Shown here one piece after another: positions 6,681 through 16,724 of a DNA stretch of 37,504 bases (positions are counted from its first letter, which is position 1; the number at the start of each line of letters is the position of its first letter). The DNA is from a virus. Its lineage: Duplodnaviria; Heunggongvirae; Uroviricota; Caudoviricetes. Where the stretch lies: IMG/VR virus record IMGVR_UViG_649989947_000021, one strand, 5' to 3'. Below the pieces are notes generated by a model. That model was given only the letters and a program-made list of their open reading frames with translations, did no database searches and was not told the DNA's origin. A program made the position numbers and the translations under genes.

Positions 6681-7011
6681 CTATGCCACGACCTGTTCAA
6701 AATCTGCCGTTATGGTTACCCACAGCGCCCCCACGCTTGCCGACCATTTACGACAAACCACCCTAATCGGTTTCCAGTCATAAGGTGGCGTCCACTGAAA
6801 TGCGCGGACGCCACCGTGCCGTTCCAGAAAGGCTTTTTAAAGATGGGTGTTCACATTTACGAACACGTATCGTCACGCTGTAAGTCGACAACTGGTTATT
6901 CAGTCCCGCCGCACGACGCTGTTCATAACCATCGCCCAGCTTCACTGTCACCACTTTCGGCTCTGATACCACATTCATATCCGGGCGCACTTTCCAGTGA
7001 AACGTCTCCAT
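6681..7011 (-). pseudogene. M: minor tail protein M, interrupted by a +1 frameshift in an A5/T5 run
   Basis: N-terminal frame (6778..7011, METFHWKVRPDMNVV...TYSVTIRV) is M-like, then diverges; the M-like C-terminus (KAFLERHGGVRAFQWTPPYDWKPIRVVCRKWSA...ADFEQVVA, stop at 6683..6681) lies in the adjacent frame; the junction is at the T5 run 6834..6838. Confidence 0.8.
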
Positions 7012-10000
7012 TACCGATATGCTCCACTTAACCGACCACCATCACGGGCCTGCTGTTGCATAAAGTCCGCTGCCGCTTTTATCCCGAGGTCATAAACCGC
7101 CTTCAGGGCAGCCGGACCTATCTGCCCGTTCGTGCCATCGTTATTGATCTCGATGTTGTACTGCGGGGAAAACATCGCCATACCTGAACCCCCAATATCC
7201 GCCACCCCCCCCAGCTTACCGTCAGCACCACGACGCAATGGCAGAATGGCTTCAGGTCCCGCTTCCCCCATCACACCCGCGCCTTTTGCAAAAGCAAAAA
7301 ACGTCGGACGGTTAACCACCGTGCCACTGTAGCGACTCAAATCAGCCGACTGATAAACACCGCCATCAGCATTGGCTACAAAATCAAAAGGCAGCGCGGA
7401 AGCAATGCCTTTTACCGCTTTCATTAAAGCTATCTGAGCCATGATTCTGGACATATCTGACAGCACAGAAGAAGTAAAAGATTTGAAATTGAGTTTGCCT
7501 GTAGTACAGAATGTCGCCAGCCAGTCACTCATGCTACTGAACGCAGACGTGAACAACTGTTCCACTGTCCAGGCTGTGTTATCCGCATTCTCAGTGACAT
7601 TCTGGAGTGCACGCAGGACTCCGTTTTTCCAGTTACCCTGAGCAATTTCAAGCTGTTGCCAGTAACGGCGATTCTCATTCAGTTGTCGGTTCAGGCTCTC
7701 CGTCAGCGCCTGCTCGGCCTTTCTGTAGTCATCCGTGTTATATGTCCCTTTCTGCTCACTATCCCGCCTCAACTGCTCCAGCTGTTGCTGGTATTTCTGA
7801 CGAAGACTCAGTTGTACCTGATATCGCTGCCGCTGCTGATCACCCATACCCACCGTGGCGATATCCAGATTATGTTGTTGACGCTGAGCACGCTCTTCTT
7901 CAGCCAGTTGACTGGTCAGCTGAATTGTTTTTTTCTTCAGCTCGTTGAGTGCCGTCTGTTTCTGAAGCTCCTGCTGTTTTACATCCAGCAGCGTCAGTGC
8001 CTGAATCAGTTCATCTTTACGGGCCAGCACACTCTTTTCATCTGCCGTCAGTTTTTTCCCGTCCAGGTCGCTGATGCGCTGCTGCAGAGCCAGAAGCTGT
8101 TTATGCGCTTCTGTCATCCTTTCCGTGGCAATGCCTGCTGACTGTCTGGCAGCAGCAATCTGTCCTTCCACCTGTGCCTGTTGCTGACTGTACTGCAGCA
8201 ATAACCGGGTGGCCTCATCATTACGGGTTTCGCGTGTTTTTTTCTTACCGGATGCCAGGGCTTTCTCGTAACGTTCATTTTCACGTTGTATCGCCGCATC
8301 CCTGACAGTCTGATCGGCGTACTGCATGGCATTAATACGCGCAATTTCACGCTGATGTCGTGCTGCTTCCGTTTCATTCATCCGGTTCAGTGCAGCATTT
8401 TCAGCATTACGGCGTTTCTGTTGCTCCTGATAATTCCGCTCTGCCTGCTCTTTTGCATCCTGCAAATCCTTCTGGCGTTTTTTTTCCTGAAGCTCGTTAA
8501 GACGCTGCTGATCGTACTCAACCTGAGAAGATGATGCCGTCCAGGGGAGTCTTTTCGCCCGCGACACTTTCTCCTGTAAAGCGGAAATCTGTTCATCCAG
8601 CGAGTCTTCACGACCAATATTCATGGCCGCATCCCAGAAACGACTCCATAAATCAGACAGATACTTCAGCGTACTGCCCAGCGCATTGAGGTTATTATCA
8701 ATATCCGCAGTACGCCGACCGGTTTCCTCTGCCAGTGCAGACATGGCTATCCGTGCCGCATCACTGGACCGCCCCTGTTCCCCAAGGACGCGTATCTGCT
8801 CAAGCTGAGTGGCAGTAAGAAAATGCAGCTCATTGTCCAGAGCCTTCGCGGCATTTACAGGATCATCCTTCAGCCGCTTAAACTGACTTATGGTATCGCT
8901 GACCGACTGGCCAACCGATCGCTCCATCTGTGCGGCAGCTCTCGCCACCATACCGATATCGTTTCCACGAAATGCACCACTCCCCACCACCTGAGCCAGC
9001 GCACCGGCTGCAGCATGTTGCGTGATACCATTCCCGGAAATAGCACGACTGAGCGTCCACAGCTGCCCGGCAGTGACTCCGGCATAATGCCCCGTCAGCG
9101 ACAGCTGGCGGTTAAATTCTTCCCCCTCCTTCTGACCGTCATACCAGGCTTTACCCAGACCATAGACAGCTGCGGCAATACCGCCAATAACCCCGCCCAG
9201 CATCATGCCTTTCGGTGACATCAGTGTGTCTATCCATCCGGCACGGTTAGCCAGCGTTATCCCGGATCCCCTCAGCGCCCCTAAATTGCCGCGGGCCAGT
9301 TCACCTATCAGAACGCCTATCTCCTGGCGGGCCGCTGCACTTTTCAGACCCAGCGAATGCGTGGCTTTTCCTGCCTGCTCCATTTTGCGGATATACACTT
9401 CTGCAGCACTGCTTACCCCCAGCTGGGCAGCCTTAGCACGAAGCAACTCAGAAGATGAAAGATTCTGGCGGGTTGCCTGCTCTTTAAGCTGACGGATAAA
9501 CGCCACTTTCTGTCGGGTACCCTCTTCCTCAGCCTGTGTAAGAACACGGGTTTTCGCCGTAACCTCAGAAATCAGCGCCAGATAATCCTGCTGACCAATC
9601 CCGCCACTGTTTCTGGCCTGTCGGATCTGCTGCTGAATACGCTGTAATTCCTGCAGCCCCGCACTGGCCTGTTTCACACTGTCAATCTGACGATAAAACG
9701 CAGCAGCCGCTTTATCCTGAGCCTCCGCCAGAGCCATGGCCTGCGCCTGTTCCTCGCGCATTTTCTGGCTCAGCGCCTCCATGCGCTGGCGGGTTTTCTC
9801 CACCTCGCGGGCCATGCGTTCATGAGCCTGTGCGTTCTTCTCCACCGTCTGCGCATGGACGGATGCGGCTGTTGCAGCCGAAGAAGCCGCCTGCGTTGTC
9901 TGCCGGGCGGCCTGAGTCTGACGCTCCATAAAACGCTGCATACGGGCAGAAGACCGTTCTGCATCGCTGGCTGCACCATTCAGAAGGTTTTTGATACGGG

Positions 10001-10067
10001 GGATTTCATTTTTAAACTCTGCCGCATCAATCCCCAAATCAATGACCAGGTTGGCTATCTGGTCCAT
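7011..10067 (-). CDS. H: tail tape measure protein H
   Basis: Approximately 1018-aa coiled-coil-rich ORF whose C-terminus (...NNDGTNGQIGPAALKAVYDLGIKAAADFMQQQARDGG...) matches lambda H by recall; start set at ATG 10067 (MDQIANLVIDLGID) with GGAGG 8 nt upstream; the ORF track start at 10097 is TTG. Confidence 0.9.
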   Translation of the reverse strand: MDQIANLVIDLGIDAAEFKNEIPRIKNLLNGAASDAERSSARMQRFMERQTQAARQTTQAASSAATAASVHAQTVEKNAQAHERMAREVEKTRQRMEALSQKMREEQAQAMALAEAQDKAAAAFYRQIDSVKQASAGLQELQRIQQQIRQARNSGGIGQQDYLALISEVTAKTRVLTQAEEEGTRQKVAFIRQLKEQATRQNLSSSELLRAKAAQLGVSSAAEVYIRKMEQAGKATHSLGLKSAAARQEIGVLIGELARGNLGALRGSGITLANRAGWIDTLMSPKGMMLGGVIGGIAAAVYGLGKAWYDGQKEGEEFNRQLSLTGHYAGVTAGQLWTLSRAISGNGITQHAAAGALAQVVGSGAFRGNDIGMVARAAAQMERSVGQSVSDTISQFKRLKDDPVNAAKALDNELHFLTATQLEQIRVLGEQGRSSDAARIAMSALAEETGRRTADIDNNLNALGSTLKYLSDLWSRFWDAAMNIGREDSLDEQISALQEKVSRAKRLPWTASSSQVEYDQQRLNELQEKKRQKDLQDAKEQAERNYQEQQKRRNAENAALNRMNETEAARHQREIARINAMQYADQTVRDAAIQRENERYEKALASGKKKTRETRNDEATRLLLQYSQQQAQVEGQIAAARQSAGIATERMTEAHKQLLALQQRISDLDGKKLTADEKSVLARKDELIQALTLLDVKQQELQKQTALNELKKKTIQLTSQLAEEERAQRQQHNLDIATVGMGDQQRQRYQVQLSLRQKYQQQLEQLRRDSEQKGTYNTDDYRKAEQALTESLNRQLNENRRYWQQLEIAQGNWKNGVLRALQNVTENADNTAWTVEQLFTSAFSSMSDWLATFCTTGKLNFKSFTSSVLSDMSRIMAQIALMKAVKGIASALPFDFVANADGGVYQSADLSRYSGTVVNRPTFFAFAKGAGVMGEAGPEAILPLRRGADGKLGGVADIGGSGMAMFSPQYNIEINNDGTNGQIGPAALKAVYDLGIKAAADFMQQQARDGGRLSGAYR

Positions 10068-10389
10068 AACGCACACCTCCGGAAATACCTTCCCCAAGAT
10101 GCATCAGTTCTTCGTCCGTTCGCTCCGGTATCCCGTTCTCTTCCGGTAAAAGGCTGAAATCAGCCACCGCAGCATCACTGCTGCCGGACACCATTCTCAC
10201 GATCAATGCCTTCAGCGAGGCAAACTGCGCATCCATCCACACATCACTGAAGCTCTGCATCCGGAAATAATCGCCCCACTCACCAAGCTCAGTGGCCGAC
10301 ATTTCCGACAGCATCCGCCGCCAGTCTGCCCGCCGGAACTCCCGGGCAAGCCGCATGACAAACTGCATTTCCCGCGTCAGGACTTTTCC
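10039..10389 (-). CDS. T: T-frame part of the G-T tail assembly chaperone, expressed by -1 frameshift from G
   Basis: ORF in the -1 frame relative to G, open only from 10401 downward, overlapping the G 3' end and the H start; same arrangement as lambda G/G-T. Confidence 0.7.
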   Translation of the reverse strand, partial: GKVLTREMQFVMRLAREFRRADWRRMLSEMSATELGEWGDYFRMQSFSDVWMDAQFASLKALIVRMVSGSSDAAVADFSLLPEENGIPERTDEELMHLGEGISGGVRYGPDSQPGH

Positions 10390-10766
10390 GGCGTCAGCGC
10401 CTCATGCTCATCATCCCCGGCATTATCAATGGTCCCCATACCGCTCAGCGACAGAACCATCTCCGCCCCCGCACCCAGGGCATCATACGACCATGTTGTA
10501 ATAACGGATGCGCAAAGCGTCTCTACATCCTTAGACTGATCCGCATTCCACTGTGAGCGGGAAACCAGCCAGGCATTGATATCCATCCCCATCCGCAGAA
10601 AAGCAATCTGTCGTTCAGCCTCCGGCAGTTCTCCCTCTTCGGCATCAAACTTTGCCGTTCGCTGCTGAACAAACGCCAGATATTCAATTCTCTGCAGCCC
10701 GGACAGCTCACTGAGCACCACGGACTGCTTTTCATAATTAAACGTGCCCTGTTTCAGAAACATCAT
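10377..10766 (-). CDS. G: tail assembly chaperone G
   Basis: ORF ...MMFLKQGTFNYEKQSVVLSELSGLQRIEYLAFVQQ... ending EALTPEKS; start at ATG 10766 with GGTGGAG upstream (ORF track start at 10805 is TTG and overlaps the terminator). Confidence 0.85.
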   Translation of the reverse strand: MMFLKQGTFNYEKQSVVLSELSGLQRIEYLAFVQQRTAKFDAEEGELPEAERQIAFLRMGMDINAWLVSRSQWNADQSKDVETLCASVITTWSYDALGAGAEMVLSLSGMGTIDNAGDDEHEALTPEKS

Positions 10767-10776
10767 GTTCTCCACC

Positions 10777-10803
10777 TGAAAAAAAGCCCCGGATAACCGG
10801 GGC
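10777..10803 (-). terminator. hairpin plus U-run between V and G (attenuator or terminator)
   Basis: Minus strand GCCCCGG-TTAT-CCGGGGC followed by TTTTTTT, immediately upstream of the G ribosome-binding site. Confidence 0.5.
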
Positions 10804-10823: not shown

Positions 10824-11567
10824 TTAACCTGCGGCGCTGACAGCCACCGCAGCCACTGCCACAAAATCGCCGTCAGAAGTCATGCCCACAATGCTGACAC
10901 TGCCCTGCTTCACGCCTTTCACCGTGGCCACAAGCCCGTTCAGGGTCACCGTGGCAGTCTGTGGATCTGTCGAATGCACACTGATCGCTTTGTCACTGGC
11001 TCCGTCAGGTTTTACTGTAAAGGTCAGCGTGGTGGTTGCTCCCACTTTTACACTGGCAGATGCCGGTGCCACCGTCAGCCCGGTAACGCCCACAGTTTCA
11101 GTGCCCTCCTCTGCCAGATACGGACGCCCCACACCGCTGATTTTCACTGTGCGGGTCATCACGTCTTTTGAGGCAATGGTTTTACCCAGTGAGCTCAGCC
11201 AGCCACGGAAAACATCAACAGTGCCGTTGGGATATTTGATACGAAACGCGCAGACTTCACCGGAGTCGAACAACTGAACCAGTTTTTTCTGCCCGCTGTC
11301 ACCCGGACGCCAGGCCAGCGTCGCCGAAGTATCACCAACGGATTTCTGCCCCTGGGTTGTCGTTTTCCAGTCTGCATCTTCATCATCGAGATAAGTGTCA
11401 TCTTCTGCATCAGCGGTCATTTCGCCAGGTTGCAGATCCTTCACCATCGCAAGACGCAGCCAGTCAGTGTCCGACAAAGGGTTCGCAAATGCGTCGCCGT
11501 TGCCGGTATACATCCAGAACGTCGTTCCCGCACCTTTCGTTTTTGCCAGTGGATTTGGTGTGGTCAT
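10824..11567 (-). CDS. V: major tail protein V with C-terminal Ig-like domain
   Basis: MTTPNPLAKTKGAGTTFWMYTGNGDAFANPLSDTDW... is lambda V-like; AAGGAGG ribosome-binding site before ATG 11567; C-terminal Big_2-like segment. Confidence 0.9.
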   Translation of the reverse strand: MTTPNPLAKTKGAGTTFWMYTGNGDAFANPLSDTDWLRLAMVKDLQPGEMTADAEDDTYLDDEDADWKTTTQGQKSVGDTSATLAWRPGDSGQKKLVQLFDSGEVCAFRIKYPNGTVDVFRGWLSSLGKTIASKDVMTRTVKISGVGRPYLAEEGTETVGVTGLTVAPASASVKVGATTTLTFTVKPDGASDKAISVHSTDPQTATVTLNGLVATVKGVKQGSVSIVGMTSDGDFVAVAAVAVSAAG

Positions 11568-11577
11568 TACCACCTCC

Positions 11578-13243: not shown

Positions 13244-15202
13244 TTACGCCGTACATTTCACCAGACCGCGGTGATCAACTGGCGCGACACCGGCGTCAAT
13301 ACGCACTTTCGTTGTCACGCCATCCACACTGAAGCCCTCCATCTGATCAATATATGGCGTATCCACACCGTTGAGATAAGCCACTTCAATCGTATCGGAG
13401 CCTTTGGACGCAGCCAGGTAGAAGGTGGTCTGGCTGTTATCATCAAGACGAGGCTCTGCAATAACGGTCGCAAAATCTTTCACCGGGTTAATAATACCGG
13501 CGTTAATGTCAGCCCCCTTGACACTTGAGGAGCGAATGACCTGGTTAGCAACAGACTCCATCGCCGTCGGTACCAGTACGAACGCAGGACGAATATTCAG
13601 ATGACGCTCCCCCTCTTTCTGAACGCGCATCAACTGGCGGGCTTTATCCAGCGATGCCACGTCCATTGCAGCGCTCTCCAGTACGTTTGCATGTTTCGCT
13701 TTATCGAACAGACTTACATTATCTGTGGAGATTTTCGGGTTAGACGTCAGAATGGCATAAACCAGATCGGCAATAGTGGATTTCGCCGCACGGCCCAGTT
13801 TCATCGGGACATCGGTCAGCATATTCAGATCATCATTGATAATGGCCTGACGGGTGATACTGAACAGCTCGCCATAGGTCGCCAGTGCAATAGTGGCCTG
13901 TTTATCTCCGGTGGTGACGTATTTATATTCCGCCCCTTCACGCACCTGACGCAGAGCACTGAAGCCCCCCATACCCACACGATGGGCAATTTTAAAATCA
14001 GACAACTGACCTTTCCGCGTCCACTGTTCATAGGTTTCAGGGGCATCTTCCCAGCCCTGCAGAATGGCTTTGTTCGCAACATCCAGCAGAATATTACCGA
14101 AGTCAGACGTACTGTGTGTGAACGCCGCACCGACCATCTGCATCGGGTTATAACTGGAAACCCCAATACCCCGTTCAGTCAGTGACATACGGGCATATTC
14201 ACGCAGGGTCATCCCGTTGTAGACATTATCACGTTCGGTTTTTTCAAATCCGGCACGCGCCATCAGCGCCTGGCGGATCCCGTCCCCCACAAAATTACCG
14301 TTACCGGCATAAATATGAGCCGGGGTATTTTTATTGGATGGCGTGGACTCGCGCCCCATCTCGTTCAACAACTTTTCGCGGGCCTGCTCCAGCGAACATT
14401 CAGGATCGGCAAGACACTGAGCCTGCAGCGTCTGATAACGCCCGCCAAACATGGCAAACAGATCATTAATACCGTTTACACGCGCTTTTTGCTCTGCCAG
14501 TACCTGCGCACGGATACTGTTTTCATCCACCACGGGTGCTGCTGCCTGCACTGGCGTCCGGGAGGCTGCAGGTTCATCATCCTGTACGCATGGAGCACTG
14601 TTGCGTGGCGGAGTAATCATGTTTCGAATGGATTCCGGCATCTTTTTAAATTCCTCTGTACGTTTTGACTGAATACATGCCATTGCCTTAACGGCTGGCG
14701 TTACCTGATCAGCAAATCCCTGTGCCAGACATTCGGCACCGGACATCCAGGTCTCATCCGCCAGCATGGCAGCAATTTCATCGGTGGTTTTCCCGGTTTT
14801 CTGTGCATAAGCGGGTAACAGAACCGCCTCAACCTTATCGAGCAGGTCGGCATAGGTGCGCATGTCCTCCGCATCACCGCCCGTAAAGCCAAATGGTTTA
14901 TGAATCATCATGAAGGTGTTTTCCGGCATAATGACCGGGTTTCCCACCATCGCAATGACCGACGCCATTGACGCCGCCACACCGTCGACATAAACGGTAA
15001 TGGACGCACCATGTGTTTTCAGCGCATTAAAAATGGCGATGCCTTCAAAGACATCGCCACCCGGTGAATTAATATGGAGATTAATGTGGGTGATATCGCC
15101 CAGTGCATTCAGATCACTGATAAACTGCTTCGCTGTAACACCCCAGAAACCAATCTCGTCATAAATATAAATATCCGCGTCACTCTGGTGACCAGCCTGC
15201 AT
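13244..15202 (-). CDS. prohead protease (ClpP/S49-like) - scaffold - major capsid protein fusion
   Basis: Long ORF: N-terminal ...ADIYIYDEIGFWGVTAKQFISDL...HINSPGGDVFEGIAIFNAL...ASMASVIAM is ClpP-like; Ala/Gln-rich linker; C-terminal half is capsid-like; start set at ATG 15202, just after the portal stop. Confidence 0.8.
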   Translation of the reverse strand: MQAGHQSDADIYIYDEIGFWGVTAKQFISDLNALGDITHINLHINSPGGDVFEGIAIFNALKTHGASITVYVDGVAASMASVIAMVGNPVIMPENTFMMIHKPFGFTGGDAEDMRTYADLLDKVEAVLLPAYAQKTGKTTDEIAAMLADETWMSGAECLAQGFADQVTPAVKAMACIQSKRTEEFKKMPESIRNMITPPRNSAPCVQDDEPAASRTPVQAAAPVVDENSIRAQVLAEQKARVNGINDLFAMFGGRYQTLQAQCLADPECSLEQAREKLLNEMGRESTPSNKNTPAHIYAGNGNFVGDGIRQALMARAGFEKTERDNVYNGMTLREYARMSLTERGIGVSSYNPMQMVGAAFTHSTSDFGNILLDVANKAILQGWEDAPETYEQWTRKGQLSDFKIAHRVGMGGFSALRQVREGAEYKYVTTGDKQATIALATYGELFSITRQAIINDDLNMLTDVPMKLGRAAKSTIADLVYAILTSNPKISTDNVSLFDKAKHANVLESAAMDVASLDKARQLMRVQKEGERHLNIRPAFVLVPTAMESVANQVIRSSSVKGADINAGIINPVKDFATVIAEPRLDDNSQTTFYLAASKGSDTIEVAYLNGVDTPYIDQMEGFSVDGVTTKVRIDAGVAPVDHRGLVKCTA

Positions 15203-15215
15203 CCTGAACCAGGAA

Positions 15216-16724
15216 TTATTCTTCGGACTGGTCGTCGGTGTGCTGTGGCTCCTGTCGTTTCGTTGCGGCACTGCTGCCTCCTTTATCACTGGCCGGATCG
15301 GTATCAAATACCAGATCCAGCTTGCGGTTTTCATCAATTTCGGCCTTGCGCCGACGTTTGACATCATCCGGATTACGACCACCTGCACGTACCCAGTCTG
15401 ATTCTGTCGCCGCTCCACCACGAATCTGGATTTTCCAGGCCTCAGCCTCCTTAACAGGGTCAATCCACGGCATCACTGGTCCGGAATACACCGCGGTATA
15501 CAGTGAAGAACGGTCAAGATCGCGGGGTAGCCTGATAACACCGGATGCCACAGCCTGTTTCAGCCAGGCACGATACATCGGGCGGGTGACGGCACCAATA
15601 AACCAGTCCTGCAGGATCAGGTAGCCATCAGTAGACTCAACCAGTTCCTGACGCTGGGCGCTGTAAGTGCCGTTATAGTTGCGTGCCGTACTGGAAAAAC
15701 TCAGACGACTGCCCGCCGCCACGGCACGCAACTGACCATTACGAAAAGTTTCAAGGTTAGGATTGGGACGATCCGACTTCACCATTCCGATTTCTTCGCC
15801 GGGTTTCAGATCGTCGTAAATAATGCCTGGCTGAATGGTAAGCTCGCGTTCATTCTCCTTGCTGCCATTACCATCCGGTTCATAGCTCTGCCCGTCGCCT
15901 TTCCGGATGTACATCCCCAGAGCAGCGGCGATCCTTGCTGCAGTCAGCTCAGAATCTTCATACTCTTTCAGGGCACTGAGGCGGATCAGCACACCGGACA
16001 ACAAAGACGTCCCGCGCATCTGGTGCAGACGGCGAACAAATTTAAGATGCAGCATTCGCTCTGCATCCACTTCTTTGGTTTCCATCTGCCGCCCGGATAC
16101 GGGACGGCTTTTATACACCAGATATTTTTCGGGACGCCCCCAGTCATCAACAAACACGCCCTGATTCAGCCTGTTGCTCTCATCACTGGTCATGGGAATA
16201 AAGTCCGGCTCGAGCGCCTCCAGCCAGAAATGAACACCGGCAGAAGGCGTCAGGCTGTTTATGCGCCCGGAAACCATCTGGGCAAACACCTCACCATCGC
16301 GCAGCCAGGTACGCAGCATCAGACGTTCCAGCATCGGACGGGTAAACTGCCCGGTGACTTCCGGACTGACAGACCATTCACTCCATCGGGTGCGTATCTC
16401 CGCTGCCAGATCACGGGCAATGGCCCCATTGCGTAATACCGGATGTGGCTCGACAATAATCCCGTTTTTCCCCACCACCCGTTCTTCCAGCTTGTCAAAT
16501 ACACCAATAACCAGATCGTGGTTGTTATCAAGGTAACGGGCCTGCTCACGTAACGACACGGCCCCGTACTGGCTTAACTGGTCGGCAGTTCGGTTTTCCC
16601 GCCGGGCTTTGTGTGTCCGCGTCGTTTTTACGGCCTCATAAGCCTGGATCACCGCACGGGAACGCAGCCTTGCCGCTTTCCATCCTGGTGAAAAAACGCC
16701 AATCACATCATCAAGAATTGCCAT
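15216..16724 (-). CDS. portal protein
   Basis: Approximately 502-aa ORF between W-like gene and protease-capsid gene; start at ATG 16724 (MAILDDVIGVFSPGW...) overlapping the W stop by 1 nt. Confidence 0.85.
   Translation of the reverse strand: MAILDDVIGVFSPGWKAARLRSRAVIQAYEAVKTTRTHKARRENRTADQLSQYGAVSLREQARYLDNNHDLVIGVFDKLEERVVGKNGIIVEPHPVLRNGAIARDLAAEIRTRWSEWSVSPEVTGQFTRPMLERLMLRTWLRDGEVFAQMVSGRINSLTPSAGVHFWLEALEPDFIPMTSDESNRLNQGVFVDDWGRPEKYLVYKSRPVSGRQMETKEVDAERMLHLKFVRRLHQMRGTSLLSGVLIRLSALKEYEDSELTAARIAAALGMYIRKGDGQSYEPDGNGSKENERELTIQPGIIYDDLKPGEEIGMVKSDRPNPNLETFRNGQLRAVAAGSRLSFSSTARNYNGTYSAQRQELVESTDGYLILQDWFIGAVTRPMYRAWLKQAVASGVIRLPRDLDRSSLYTAVYSGPVMPWIDPVKEAEAWKIQIRGGAATESDWVRAGGRNPDDVKRRRKAEIDENRKLDLVFDTDPASDKGGSSAATKRQEPQHTDDQSEE

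What the first reader, a model, noticed from the sequence alone, without database searches (positions are those of the whole stretch)
10377..10404. G-T programmed -1 frameshift must occur in a 22-nt window lacking the canonical GGGAAAG heptamer
The T frame is closed by a stop at 10404..10402 and G terminates at 10379..10377, so the ribosome must slip between them. The only plausible site there is CCGGAAAAG (coding strand, heptamer GGAAAAG, plus-strand 10383..10389): A-site Lys slippage AAG to AAA is classical, but P-site GAA to GGA re-pairing is non-canonical. A GGGAAA hexamer does occur, but just after the G stop and in the wrong register.
Basis: partly seen in the sequence, partly recalled or inferred. 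Interest (0 to 1): 0.45.

Follow-up and report, generated by a model that had tools for sequence, protein, structure and literature searches.

The report
N15-type G-T frameshift site GGAAAAG
This prophage makes its long tail-assembly chaperone by a -1 ribosomal slip on GGAAAAG, one base away from lambda's GGGAAAG; the same site is already annotated in phage N15 and is common in relatives, so it is ordinary.

Summary
G (10766..10377, minus strand) ends at TGA 10379..10377. The T frame is the -1 frame and opens only after TGA 10404..10402. The 22-nt overlap holds no X_XXY_YYZ heptamer, and its only in-register slip motif is G_GAA_AAG (10389..10383). This is not a sequencing error. The junction is identical in 17 cdtI/mEp460-like phage records and occurs in 1,844 of 5,426 complete E. 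coli genomes. The site is also not new. It sits at the position homologous to lambda's G_GGA_AAG. The N15 GenBank record marks the same GGAAAAG as "slippery sequence for -1 translational frameshift". In 76 unique G/T junctions, 57 use GGAAAAG. The base before GAA is G in 57 of 59 x_GAA_AAG loci, across six different upstream codons. That argues for two-tRNA slippage: tRNA-Lys moves AAG to AAA, and tRNA-Glu moves GAA to GGA with a central G.U pair. I found no conserved downstream structure and no enriched Shine-Dalgarno-like element. The predicted product is a 242-aa gpGT with junction ...TPEK|VLTREM.... Efficiency and the junction residue were not measured. Current records annotate G and T as separate genes.

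The parts
10377..10766 (-). Gene G, tail assembly chaperone gpG: 129 aa from ATG 10766, or 128 aa from ATG 10763; stop TGA 10379..10377
   Evidence: ORF and translation. Pfam PF06894 Phage_TAC_2, E=1.1e-38. Annotated as G or minor tail protein in cdtI, mEp460, Tritos and by PGAP.
10383..10389 (-). Slip heptamer G_GAA_AAG. In the 0 frame the codons are GAA (Glu) and AAG (Lys); in the -1 frame they are GGA and AAA
   Evidence: It is the only in-register A_AAR motif in the overlap. It is invariant in close relatives. Gifsy-1, Gifsy-2 and Fels-1 keep it. The same heptamer is annotated as the slippery sequence in N15. It occurs in 57 of 76 unique junctions.
10380..10401 (-). The 22-nt stretch where both the G frame and the T frame are open; the shift must occur here
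   Evidence: Frame and stop map.
10402..10404 (-). TGA that closes the T (-1) frame upstream
   Evidence: There are 12 more T-frame stops between 10408 and 10740.
10039..10383 (-). T segment, read in the -1 frame from GTC 10383..10381 to TGA 10041..10039. It forms the C-terminal 114 aa of the predicted 242-aa gpGT
   Evidence: Translation. Pfam PF06223 Phage_tail_T, E=4.5e-15. T-frame residues are conserved from the Lys of the heptamer onward, including an invariant Glu upstream of the annotated ATG 10368.
10366..10368 (-). ATG used as the start of a separate 'T' gene in the cdtI, mEp460 and PGAP annotations. It is probably an internal Met of gpGT
   Evidence: Annotations. The only purine-rich stretch upstream (GGGAA) abuts the ATG. 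Gifsy-1 and Fels-1 have CTG at this position and other relatives have Leu.
7011..10067 (-). Gene H, the tape measure protein. Context: its ATG 10067 overlaps the end of T by 29 nt
   Evidence: cdtI annotation mapped onto the window. Pfam TMP_2, Tape_meas_lam_C and TMP_4. GGAGG lies 8 nt upstream of the ATG.
10824..11570 (-). Gene V, the major tail tube protein with a C-terminal Ig-like domain. Context: it is the upstream neighbour of G
   Evidence: Pfam Phage_TTP_12, E=5e-67, and Big_2.

Best explanation
This is the lambda-type tail assembly chaperone pair G/GT of a cdtI/mEp460-like prophage. Most ribosomes translate G and stop at TGA 10379..10377, which gives gpG (129 aa, 14.4 kDa). A minority slip back one base on G_GAA_AAG (10389..10383) while GAA is in the P site and AAG is in the A site. 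The single E. coli tRNA-Lys (mnm5s2UUU) moves from AAG to the better-matched AAA. tRNA-Glu (mnm5s2UUC) moves from GAA to GGA. That keeps the first pair (G:C) and the third pair (A:U34) and puts a G.U pair in the middle. Reading then continues in the -1 frame with GTC CTG ACG and so on. It bypasses the G stop and yields gpGT (242 aa, 27.2 kDa) with the junction ...HEALTPEK|VLTREMQFVMRL.... By analogy with lambda, the G part binds the tape measure protein H and the T part recruits the tail tube protein V. A low GT:G ratio is what the system needs, so a weak slip site is sufficient. Shown here: the frames, the family membership, the homologous position of the site, and its conservation. Inferred: that slippage happens at all, the two-tRNA mode, the efficiency, and the junction residues. 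The confidence of 0.65 is for the whole statement including the two-tRNA mode; that a -1 shift on this heptamer makes gpGT I put at about 0.9.
For: 1) Frames: the T frame is closed until 10402 and G ends at 10377, and G_GAA_AAG is the only in-register slip motif in the overlap. 2) Family and synteny: G matches PF06894 and T matches PF06223, and they lie between V and H in a Z-U-V-G-T-H module. 3) Homologous position: anchored on the T-frame K-[VA]-[LF]-x-x-E-[LM]-x-F, the heptamer aligns with lambda G_GGA_AAG, Stx-phage A_AAA_AAG and Vibrio-phage C_CCA_AAA. 4) Precedent: the N15 record marks GGAAAAG as 'slippery sequence for -1 translational frameshift', and the Gifsy records describe T as made by frameshifting. 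5) Conservation: the junction is invariant in 17 close phage records and is kept in Gifsy-1, Gifsy-2 and Fels-1 although the adjacent G tail has diverged. GGAAAAG occurs in 57 of 76 unique junctions and in 14 of 22 T clusters. Overlaps as short as 13 nt pin the shift to the heptamer. 6) Two-tRNA mode: the base 5' of GAA is G in 57 of 59 loci, over the codons GCG, CCG, CTG, TTG, ACG and GTG, against a 34% baseline for G at third positions. Heptamer positions 1 and 2 are identical in 21 of 22 clusters. 7) Literature: lambda shifts about 4% of the time and needs a high gpG:gpGT ratio (PMC3296357; PMC5009743). An A.U to G.U change is among the less costly mismatches in frameshift re-pairing (PMC6787027). 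G_GA is a recognised intermediate X_XX class (PMC5009743). 8) The T-frame Glu that is invariant across the family lies upstream of the annotated ATG 10368.
Against: No protein or reporter data exist for this site, so the frameshift itself is inferred. In a reconstituted E. coli system G GAA AAG served as the 'less slippery' control and gave mainly 0-frame product (PMC6924986). A_AAG alone is barely above background without a stimulator, 0.147% against 0.112% (PMC4066793). I found no stimulator. The downstream fold has z = -0.82, the alifold covariation term is unfavourable, and Shine-Dalgarno-like motifs are not enriched over shifted control windows, 24/59 against 21/59. The efficiency could therefore be well below lambda's. 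The conserved G at position 1 has not been corrected for shared ancestry. It could also reflect a decoded -1-frame Gly codon (GGN), because all four GGN variants occur in the family.
Confidence: 0.65

Rival explanations
1. Single-tRNA ('hexanucleotide' NNA_AAG) slippage. Only the A-site tRNA-Lys re-pairs from AAG to AAA. The P-site tRNA-Glu does not need to re-pair, as described for A_CGA_AAG in Bacillus cdd and G_CGA_AAG in IS1222. The protein product is the same (...PEK|VL...).
For: A_AAR is the only feature invariant across all 22 clusters. P-site codons include GTA and GCA, which cannot re-pair well, and Morganella has A_GAA_AAG. This class is described in PMC5009743. [quoted passage not shown]
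Against: Pure single-tRNA slippage puts no constraint on the base 5' of the P-site codon. Yet that base equals the next base in 21 of 22 clusters and is G in 57 of 59 x_GAA_AAG loci. The known hexanucleotide cases rely on strong stimulators, and A_AAG reaches 5.6% only with the IS3 pseudoknot. No stimulator is detectable here.
Confidence: 0.2
2. The shift happens before the Glu codon is read, so the -1-frame codons GGA AAA are decoded as Gly-Lys and the junction is ...TPGKVL.... The family-wide invariant would then be a translated Gly-Lys (GGN AAA) in the T frame.
For: Every non-lambda variant differs from GGGAAAG only at heptamer position 3, which is the wobble position of the -1-frame Gly codon: GGA, GGG, GGT and GGC all occur. 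Gly and Lys are nearly invariant in the T-frame alignment.
Against: The upstream codons (CCG, GCG, CTG and others) offer no slippery P-site codon for such a shift. The position-3 bases are mostly purines, in 17 of 20 clusters, although E. coli prefers GGC and GGT for Gly (the codon preference is from my own knowledge). The canonical exceptions read Lys-Lys, Pro-Lys and Arg-Lys, so Gly is not required.
Confidence: 0.05
3. There is no frameshift. T is a separate gene started at ATG 10368, as annotated in cdtI, mEp460, Tritos and by PGAP.
For: An ATG exists 8 nt after the G stop, and every public annotation of this lineage uses it.
Against: No properly spaced Shine-Dalgarno sequence precedes it, because GGGAA abuts the ATG. 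The ATG is not conserved: Gifsy-1 and Fels-1 have CTG, and lambda, N15 and phi80 have Leu. T-frame residues upstream of it (K, V/A, L/F and an invariant E) are conserved back to the heptamer and no further. The T frame is always open across the heptamer and always closed shortly upstream. In lambda, T is made only as gpGT (PMC5009743).
Confidence: 0.07
4. The frame change comes from a sequencing or assembly indel, a decayed prophage, or transcriptional slippage on the A4 run.
For: None beyond the presence of a short A run.
Against: The junction is identical in 17 phage records, including plaque-forming isolates such as mEp460, Tritos, Ayreon and HannyBb, and it occurs in 1,844 complete E. coli genomes. 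The same two-frame layout holds across 22 diverged clusters. Transcriptional realignment is described for runs of more than 7 A or more than 8 T (PMC3711429), and this run has four.
Confidence: 0.01

Closest known systems
Phage N15 genes 14/15 (NC_001901, misc_feature 10027..10033 'slippery sequence for -1 translational frameshift')
   Same: The genes are homologous (about 43% identity in T). The heptamer is the same GGAAAAG, at the same aligned position and in the same register, and T lies in the -1 frame between the major tail gene and the tape measure gene.
   Different: In N15 the codon before the heptamer is GCG and the G stop lies 15 nt after it. Here the codon is CCG and the stop lies 3 nt after it. 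I could not read the primary N15 paper or Xu et al. 2004, so I do not know whether the N15 site has been tested experimentally.
Phage lambda G/T, G_GGA_AAG
   Same: The same Pfam families, the same synteny, the same aligned position of the slip site, and the same T-frame continuation K-V-[LF]-x-x-E-[LM]-x-F. Frameshifting is about 4%, and the gpG:gpGT ratio is critical and sensitive to tRNA s2U34 (PMC3296357).
   Different: There is one base difference at heptamer position 3 (G against A). The lambda site is a canonical X_XXY_YYZ, and its P-site tRNA is tRNA-Gly. Here the P-site tRNA is tRNA-Glu and re-pairs with a central G.U. The lambda overlap is 61 nt against 22 nt here.
NNA_AAG hexanucleotide sites (Bacillus cdd A_CGA_AAG; IS1222 G_CGA_AAG), as reviewed in PMC5009743
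   Same: A -1 shift driven by E. coli-type tRNA-Lys moving from AAG to AAA, with a 5' codon that ends in A and does not re-pair perfectly.
   Different: Here the base before the 5' codon is conserved, which gives partial P-site re-pairing. No downstream stimulator is detectable.
G_GAN_NNN sites of eukaryotic RNA viruses, such as pea enation mosaic virus G_GAU_UUU_UGG_UAG, insect-specific flaviviruses and dianthoviruses
   Same: A non-canonical G_GA in the X_XX position. In PEMV a 0-frame stop codon lies 3 nt after the heptamer and is needed for efficiency (PMC5009743). That is the same geometry as G_GAA_AAG_UCC_UGA here.
   Different: Those sites use eukaryotic ribosomes, tRNA-Asp and tRNA-Phe rather than tRNA-Glu and tRNA-Lys, and downstream RNA structures. 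Whether the nearby stop matters here is untested. Most relatives have the stop 15 nt away.
E. coli dnaX A_AAA_AAG
   Same: The same A-site event (tRNA-Lys, AAG to AAA). Some Stx-phage relatives of this G/T pair use exactly A_AAA_AAG.
   Different: dnaX has a Shine-Dalgarno-like element upstream and a stem-loop downstream and shifts at a high rate. Neither element is supported here.

Membership tests
Lambda-type tail assembly chaperone G/GT made by -1 programmed frameshift | Two overlapping ORFs lie between the major tail protein gene and the tape measure gene | tested here: met
   The order on the minus strand is V (10824..11570), G (10377..10766), T frame (10039..10401), H (7011..10067).
Lambda-type tail assembly chaperone G/GT made by -1 programmed frameshift | The upstream ORF belongs to the gpG family and the downstream ORF to the gpT family | tested here: met
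   PF06894 with E=1.1e-38 and PF06223 with E=4.5e-15, both above their curated cut-offs.
Lambda-type tail assembly chaperone G/GT made by -1 programmed frameshift | The downstream ORF is in the -1 frame, is open across the end of G, and lacks a conserved start of its own | tested here: met
   Frame arithmetic and stop map. ATG 10368 is not conserved and has no properly spaced Shine-Dalgarno sequence.
Lambda-type tail assembly chaperone G/GT made by -1 programmed frameshift | A slip-prone sequence lies in the overlap at a conserved position | tested here: met
   G_GAA_AAG sits at the position of lambda G_GGA_AAG, and the same heptamer is annotated in N15.
Lambda-type tail assembly chaperone G/GT made by -1 programmed frameshift | A G-T fusion protein is made at a low percentage and is needed for tail assembly | not testable with these tools
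   No expression or proteomic data are available. No full-length joined GT protein of this lineage turned up in the protein search.
Canonical tandem-slippage heptamer X_XXY_YYZ | XXX are three identical bases, so the P-site tRNA re-pairs fully | tested here: not met
   XXX is GGA. GAA to GGA leaves a second-position G.U pair (described as a mismatch in PMC6924986).
Canonical tandem-slippage heptamer X_XXY_YYZ | YYY are three identical bases, and Z lets the same tRNA read both frames | tested here: met
   The A-site motif is A_AAG. E. coli has one tRNA-Lys for AAA and AAG (PMC5009743).
Hexanucleotide NNA_AAG single-tRNA slippage | In-frame A_AAG is preceded by a codon ending in A that cannot re-pair | tested here: met
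   GAA_AAG is in the G frame.
Hexanucleotide NNA_AAG single-tRNA slippage | There is no constraint on the base 5' of the NNA codon | tested here: not met
   That base is G in 57 of 59 loci over six codon types, and positions 1 and 2 are identical in 21 of 22 clusters. The counts are not corrected for phylogeny.
Hexanucleotide NNA_AAG single-tRNA slippage | A strong stimulator (pseudoknot, hairpin or Shine-Dalgarno-like element) accompanies the motif | tested here: not met
   The downstream fold has z = -0.82. The covariation term is +1.12. Shine-Dalgarno-like motifs occur in 24/59 loci against 21/59 in a shifted control window.
G_GAN_NNN sites with a nearby 0-frame stop (PEMV type) | A G_GA P-site triplet has a stop codon 3 nt after the heptamer that contributes to efficiency | tested here: inconclusive
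   The geometry is present here and in 18 of 59 x_GAA_AAG loci. The stop lies 0 nt away in 9 loci and 15 nt away in 32. The functional contribution cannot be tested here.

The most novel reading that the evidence does not exclude
G_GAA_AAG was used in vitro as the 'barely slippery' control, yet in this survey it is the preferred natural G-T slip site of enterobacterial lambda-like prophages, and it has no detectable RNA stimulator. If it delivers a lambda-like percentage in vivo, some determinant has gone unrecognised. Candidates are the 0-frame stop 0-3 nt downstream (as in PEMV) and the fact that both slipping tRNAs, Glu and Lys, carry mnm5s2U34, which would make the gpG:gpGT ratio doubly dependent on host tRNA thiolation. 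Unlike lambda's site, this one also gives different junction residues under different slippage models (Glu-Lys against Gly-Lys), so it could serve as a natural discriminator between them.
Probability: 0.2. Interest if true: 0.45.

Novelty: new member of a known kind. Interest (0 to 1): 0.2.

Why it matters
The main value is for annotation. This junction is present in about a third of complete E. coli genomes. [quoted passage not shown] The real second product is most likely a 242-aa gpGT fusion. For recoding specialists the survey adds a modest point. At one homologous position the family samples G_GGA_AAG, G_GAA_AAG, G_GTA_AAG, G_GCA_AAA, A_AAA_AAG and C_CCA_AAA. The near-canonical G_GAA_AAG dominates, and the first P-site base is conserved. 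That makes the family a natural series for asking how much P-site re-pairing a low-efficiency bacterial -1 frameshift needs.

Tried and rejected
1) Upstream Shine-Dalgarno-like stimulator. All four members of the cdtI/Gifsy/Fels group have GAGG or AGGA 9-12 nt upstream. Across 59 x_GAA_AAG loci, however, the rate (24/59) is no higher than in a control window shifted by 16 nt (21/59), and the N15/phi80 group lacks the motif. The motif is explained by the Glu/Asp-rich tail of G, so I rejected it.

2) Downstream stimulatory structure. The 93 nt after the heptamer fold no better than shuffled sequences (z = -0.82). The consensus fold of five diverged relatives has an unfavourable covariation term. 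Rejected.

3) GGGAAA after the G stop as the true site. It is in the wrong register and beyond the stop, and it is simply Arg-Glu in the T frame. Rejected.

4) Sequencing error or indel. Some relatives span 832 bases against 831 of the query, but the G and T coordinates are identical and the junction is invariant. Rejected.

5) The first viral-contig scan returned only identical copies and added no diversity.

6) Literature. I could not retrieve Licznar et al. 2003 or Xu, Hendrix and Duda 2004. Full-text searches for GGAAAAG together with phage, tail and frameshift found nothing on this site. The supplements of Antonov et al. 2013 hold no G/T GGAAAAG construct. A 2025 preprint on frameshift screening has no such site.

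7) A deposited joined GT protein. The search found only four singleton in-frame deletion fusions, which say nothing about the mechanism.

Full report
WHAT IS IN THE SEQUENCE

The region lies in a lambda-type tail module read on the minus strand. The gene order is: a ClpP-protease/capsid fusion, a cement protein, a head-tail adaptor, Z, U, V, an intrinsic terminator, G, T and H. The window is 99.9% identical here to phage cdtI and 98-99% identical to mEp460, Tritos, Ayreon, HannyBb and others.

G runs from 10766 to 10377 and encodes 129 aa. It matches PF06894 with E=1e-38 and ends at TGA 10379..10377. The T reading frame is the -1 frame of G. It contains 13 stops between 10740 and 10402, the last being TGA 10404..10402. 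It is then open for 120 codons to TGA 10041..10039 and matches PF06223 with E=4.5e-15.

Both frames are open together for only 22 nt, 10401..10380. The coding strand there reads GAG GCG CTG ACG CCG GAA AAG TCC TGA. There is no X_XXY_YYZ heptamer. The only in-register slip motif is G_GAA_AAG at 10389..10383. The GGGAAA just after the stop is out of register and is simply Arg-Glu in the T frame. Every factual statement in the finding is therefore correct.

IS IT MORE THAN CHANCE, OR AN ERROR?

The bare heptamer is common, with 11 copies in the window against 5.7 expected. In register it is rare. In-frame A_AAR occurs at 0.011 per codon in the window's long ORFs, which gives about 7.6% for seven codons. 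In-frame G_GAA_AAG occurs once in 13,474 codon positions.

The junction is base-for-base identical in the close phage relatives, several of which are plaque-forming isolates. It is present in 1,844 of 5,426 complete E. coli genomes. A sequencing error or a decayed gene is excluded.

COMPARISON WITH RELATIVES

Gifsy-1, Gifsy-2 and Fels-1 are 68-70% identical overall, and their G C-terminal tails cannot be aligned with this one. They still keep ACNCCGGAAAAG(T/C)CCTGA in the same register.

I then sampled T homologues at the protein level in the phage collection and in species-dereplicated bacterial genomes. For each locus I located the T-frame opening, the G stop and the in-register motifs. Anchored on the conserved T-frame motif K-[VA]-[LF]-x-x-E-[LM]-x-F, the slip site occupies one homologous position and takes several forms:

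| Slip heptamer | Unique junctions | Examples |
|---|---|---|
| GGAAAAG | 57 | N15, phi80, HK225, mEp213, mEp237, Flotzy, the cdtI/Gifsy/Fels group, and prophages of Citrobacter, Klebsiella, Enterobacter, Kluyvera, Proteus, Providencia, Serratia, Sodalis and others |
| GGGAAAG | 7 | lambda and some Stx phages |
| GGTAAAG | 3 | Pantoea |
| AAAAAAG | 2 | other Stx phages |
| CCCAAAA | 2 | Vibrio phages |
| GGCAAAA | 2 | Kluyvera, Ewingella |
| AGAAAAG | 2 | Morganella |
| GGGAAAA | 1 | Providencia |

That makes 76 unique junctions in all. At the level of 22 clusters (70% T identity), GGAAAAG occurs in 14. In some relatives the two-frame overlap is only 13 nt and holds little beyond the heptamer (L118 Proteus penneri, L172 Providencia heimbachae).

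The N15 GenBank record carries a misc_feature 'slippery sequence for -1 translational frameshift' at 10027..10033. That feature is exactly GGAAAAG. The Gifsy records also describe T as produced by frameshifting.

The sample came from patterns derived from relatives of this T protein. 'Most common' applies to that sample, which is mostly Enterobacterales.

MECHANISM

The invariant feature across all clusters is the A-site motif A_AAR. This fits the well-described shiftiness of the single E. coli tRNA-Lys, which pairs better with AAA than with AAG (PMC5009743).

The P-site codon varies: GGA, GAA, GTA, GCA, AAA and CCA. The base before it equals the codon's first base in 21 of 22 clusters. For x_GAA_AAG that base is G in 57 of 59 loci, although the upstream codon changes among GCG, CCG, CTG, TTG, ACG and GTG. 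The baseline for G at third positions in these G genes is 34%.

A pure single-tRNA model places no constraint on that base. I therefore favour two-tRNA slippage in which tRNA-Glu re-pairs on GGA. The first pair (G:C) and the third pair (A:U34) stay intact, and the middle pair becomes G.U. An A.U to G.U change is among the less costly changes in frameshift re-pairing (PMC6787027). G_GA is a recognised intermediate class of X_XX (PMC5009743).

The statistics are not corrected for shared ancestry. One alternative reading fits the fact that only heptamer position 3 varies among GGN-AAA variants: the -1-frame Gly-Lys might actually be decoded. I rate this unlikely for three reasons. The upstream codons offer no slippery P-site codon for such a shift. 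Position 3 is mostly a purine. The canonical exceptions read Lys-Lys, Pro-Lys and Arg-Lys in the -1 frame.

The predicted products are gpG (129 aa, 14.4 kDa) and gpGT (242 aa, 27.2 kDa), with the junction HEALTPEK|VLTREMQFVMRL.

EFFICIENCY AND STIMULATORS

Lambda shifts about 4% of the time and needs gpG in large excess over gpGT (PMC3296357; PMC5009743). A weak site is therefore adequate.

G GAA AAG was nevertheless used as the 'less slippery' control in a reconstituted system and gave mainly 0-frame product (PMC6924986). A_AAG without a stimulator is barely above background in vivo (PMC4066793).

I looked for stimulators and found none. The downstream 93 nt fold no better than shuffles (z = -0.82). 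A five-sequence consensus fold has an unfavourable covariation term. Shine-Dalgarno-like tetramers 6-17 nt upstream are no more frequent than in shifted control windows (24/59 against 21/59).

Two features remain as untested candidates. The first is the 0-frame stop 3 nt after the heptamer. That spacing occurs in 18 of 59 x_GAA_AAG loci, with 0 nt in 9 and 15 nt in 32. It mirrors PEMV's G_GAU_UUU_UGG_UAG, where the stop matters. The second is that both slipping tRNAs carry mnm5s2U34, the modification shown to tune lambda's gpG:gpGT ratio.

RIVALS

Independent initiation of T at ATG 10368 is what all public annotations of this lineage assume. It is unlikely. The ATG has no properly spaced Shine-Dalgarno sequence and is not conserved. 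T-frame conservation, including an invariant Glu, extends upstream of it to the heptamer and stops there. Transcriptional slippage on four A's is not credible, because described cases need runs of more than 7 (PMC3711429).

NOVELTY AND VERDICT

The feature is a further member of a known kind: the lambda/N15 G-GT programmed -1 frameshift, using the N15-type heptamer.

What is modestly new here is the survey. It shows that G_GAA_AAG dominates in this sample, that the first P-site base is conserved, and that about a third of complete E. coli genomes carry an unannotated gpGT of this type.

What I could not do: measure frameshifting, identify the junction residue, or read Xu et al. 2004, Licznar et al. 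2003 or the N15 genome paper to learn whether GGAAAAG has been tested directly.

Noticed in passing
window 10786..10803 (- strand): A strong intrinsic-terminator-like hairpin (GCCCCGG TTAT CCGGGGC followed by T7) sits between the major tail gene V and G. The mEp460, Ayreon and N15 records annotate a terminator or stem-loop at the same place. Partial termination here could lower G/T/H expression relative to V.
   Followed up: partly
window 10366..10368 and 10039..10368 (- strand); E. coli loci L182-L184: The cdtI, mEp460 and Tritos records and NCBI PGAP annotate T as a separate 109-aa gene starting at ATG 10368, with no joined or frameshifted CDS. This junction occurs in 1,844 of 5,426 complete E. 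coli genomes, so it is a widespread annotation gap.
   Followed up: yes
window 10039..10067 (- strand): The tape measure gene H starts at ATG 10067, with GGAGG 8 nt upstream, and overlaps the last 29 nt of the T frame.
   Followed up: partly
window 13244..15463 (- strand): A single 739-codon ORF combines a ClpP-type protease domain (PF00574, residues 95-255) with a phage capsid domain (PF25209, residues 441-736), so it is a protease/major-capsid fusion. Its listed TTG start is probably too far upstream.
   Followed up: partly
loci L156-L168, L176, L179-L181 (genome contigs): A lambda-identical G/T junction appears on short, often about 1x-coverage contigs in assemblies labelled Kitasatospora, Neobacillus, Oceanobacillus, Paenibacillus, Enterococcus, Leeuwenhoekiella, Shewanella, Pseudoxanthomonas and others. 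This is almost certainly lambda control-DNA contamination of those assemblies.
   Followed up: no
loci L103, L108, L149: Enterobacterial-type G/T junctions (cdtI-like in L103 and L108, phi80/N15-like in L149) occur in metagenome-assembled genomes labelled Bacillota, Proteobacteria and Geobacteraceae. These are likely mis-binned enterobacterial prophage contigs.
   Followed up: no
proteins P0001, P0002, P0003, P0018: Four singleton proteins carry the G and T domains in one frame because of internal deletions of about 8-28 residues around the junction. They may come from decayed prophages or assembly errors, and none is a full-length gpGT.
   Followed up: partly
loci L114, L115, L118, L119, L125-L127, L134, L172 (Proteus, Providencia, Morganella): In these relatives the G stop codon follows the heptamer directly (G_GAA_AAG_TAG or G_GAA_AAG_TAA). 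Morganella has A_GAA_AAG and is the only cluster that lacks the conserved first G.
   Followed up: partly
window, whole: GGAAAAG occurs 11 times on both strands against 5.7 expected, and only 2 of 100 shuffles reach 11. The other ten copies were not examined for reading frame or context.
   Followed up: no
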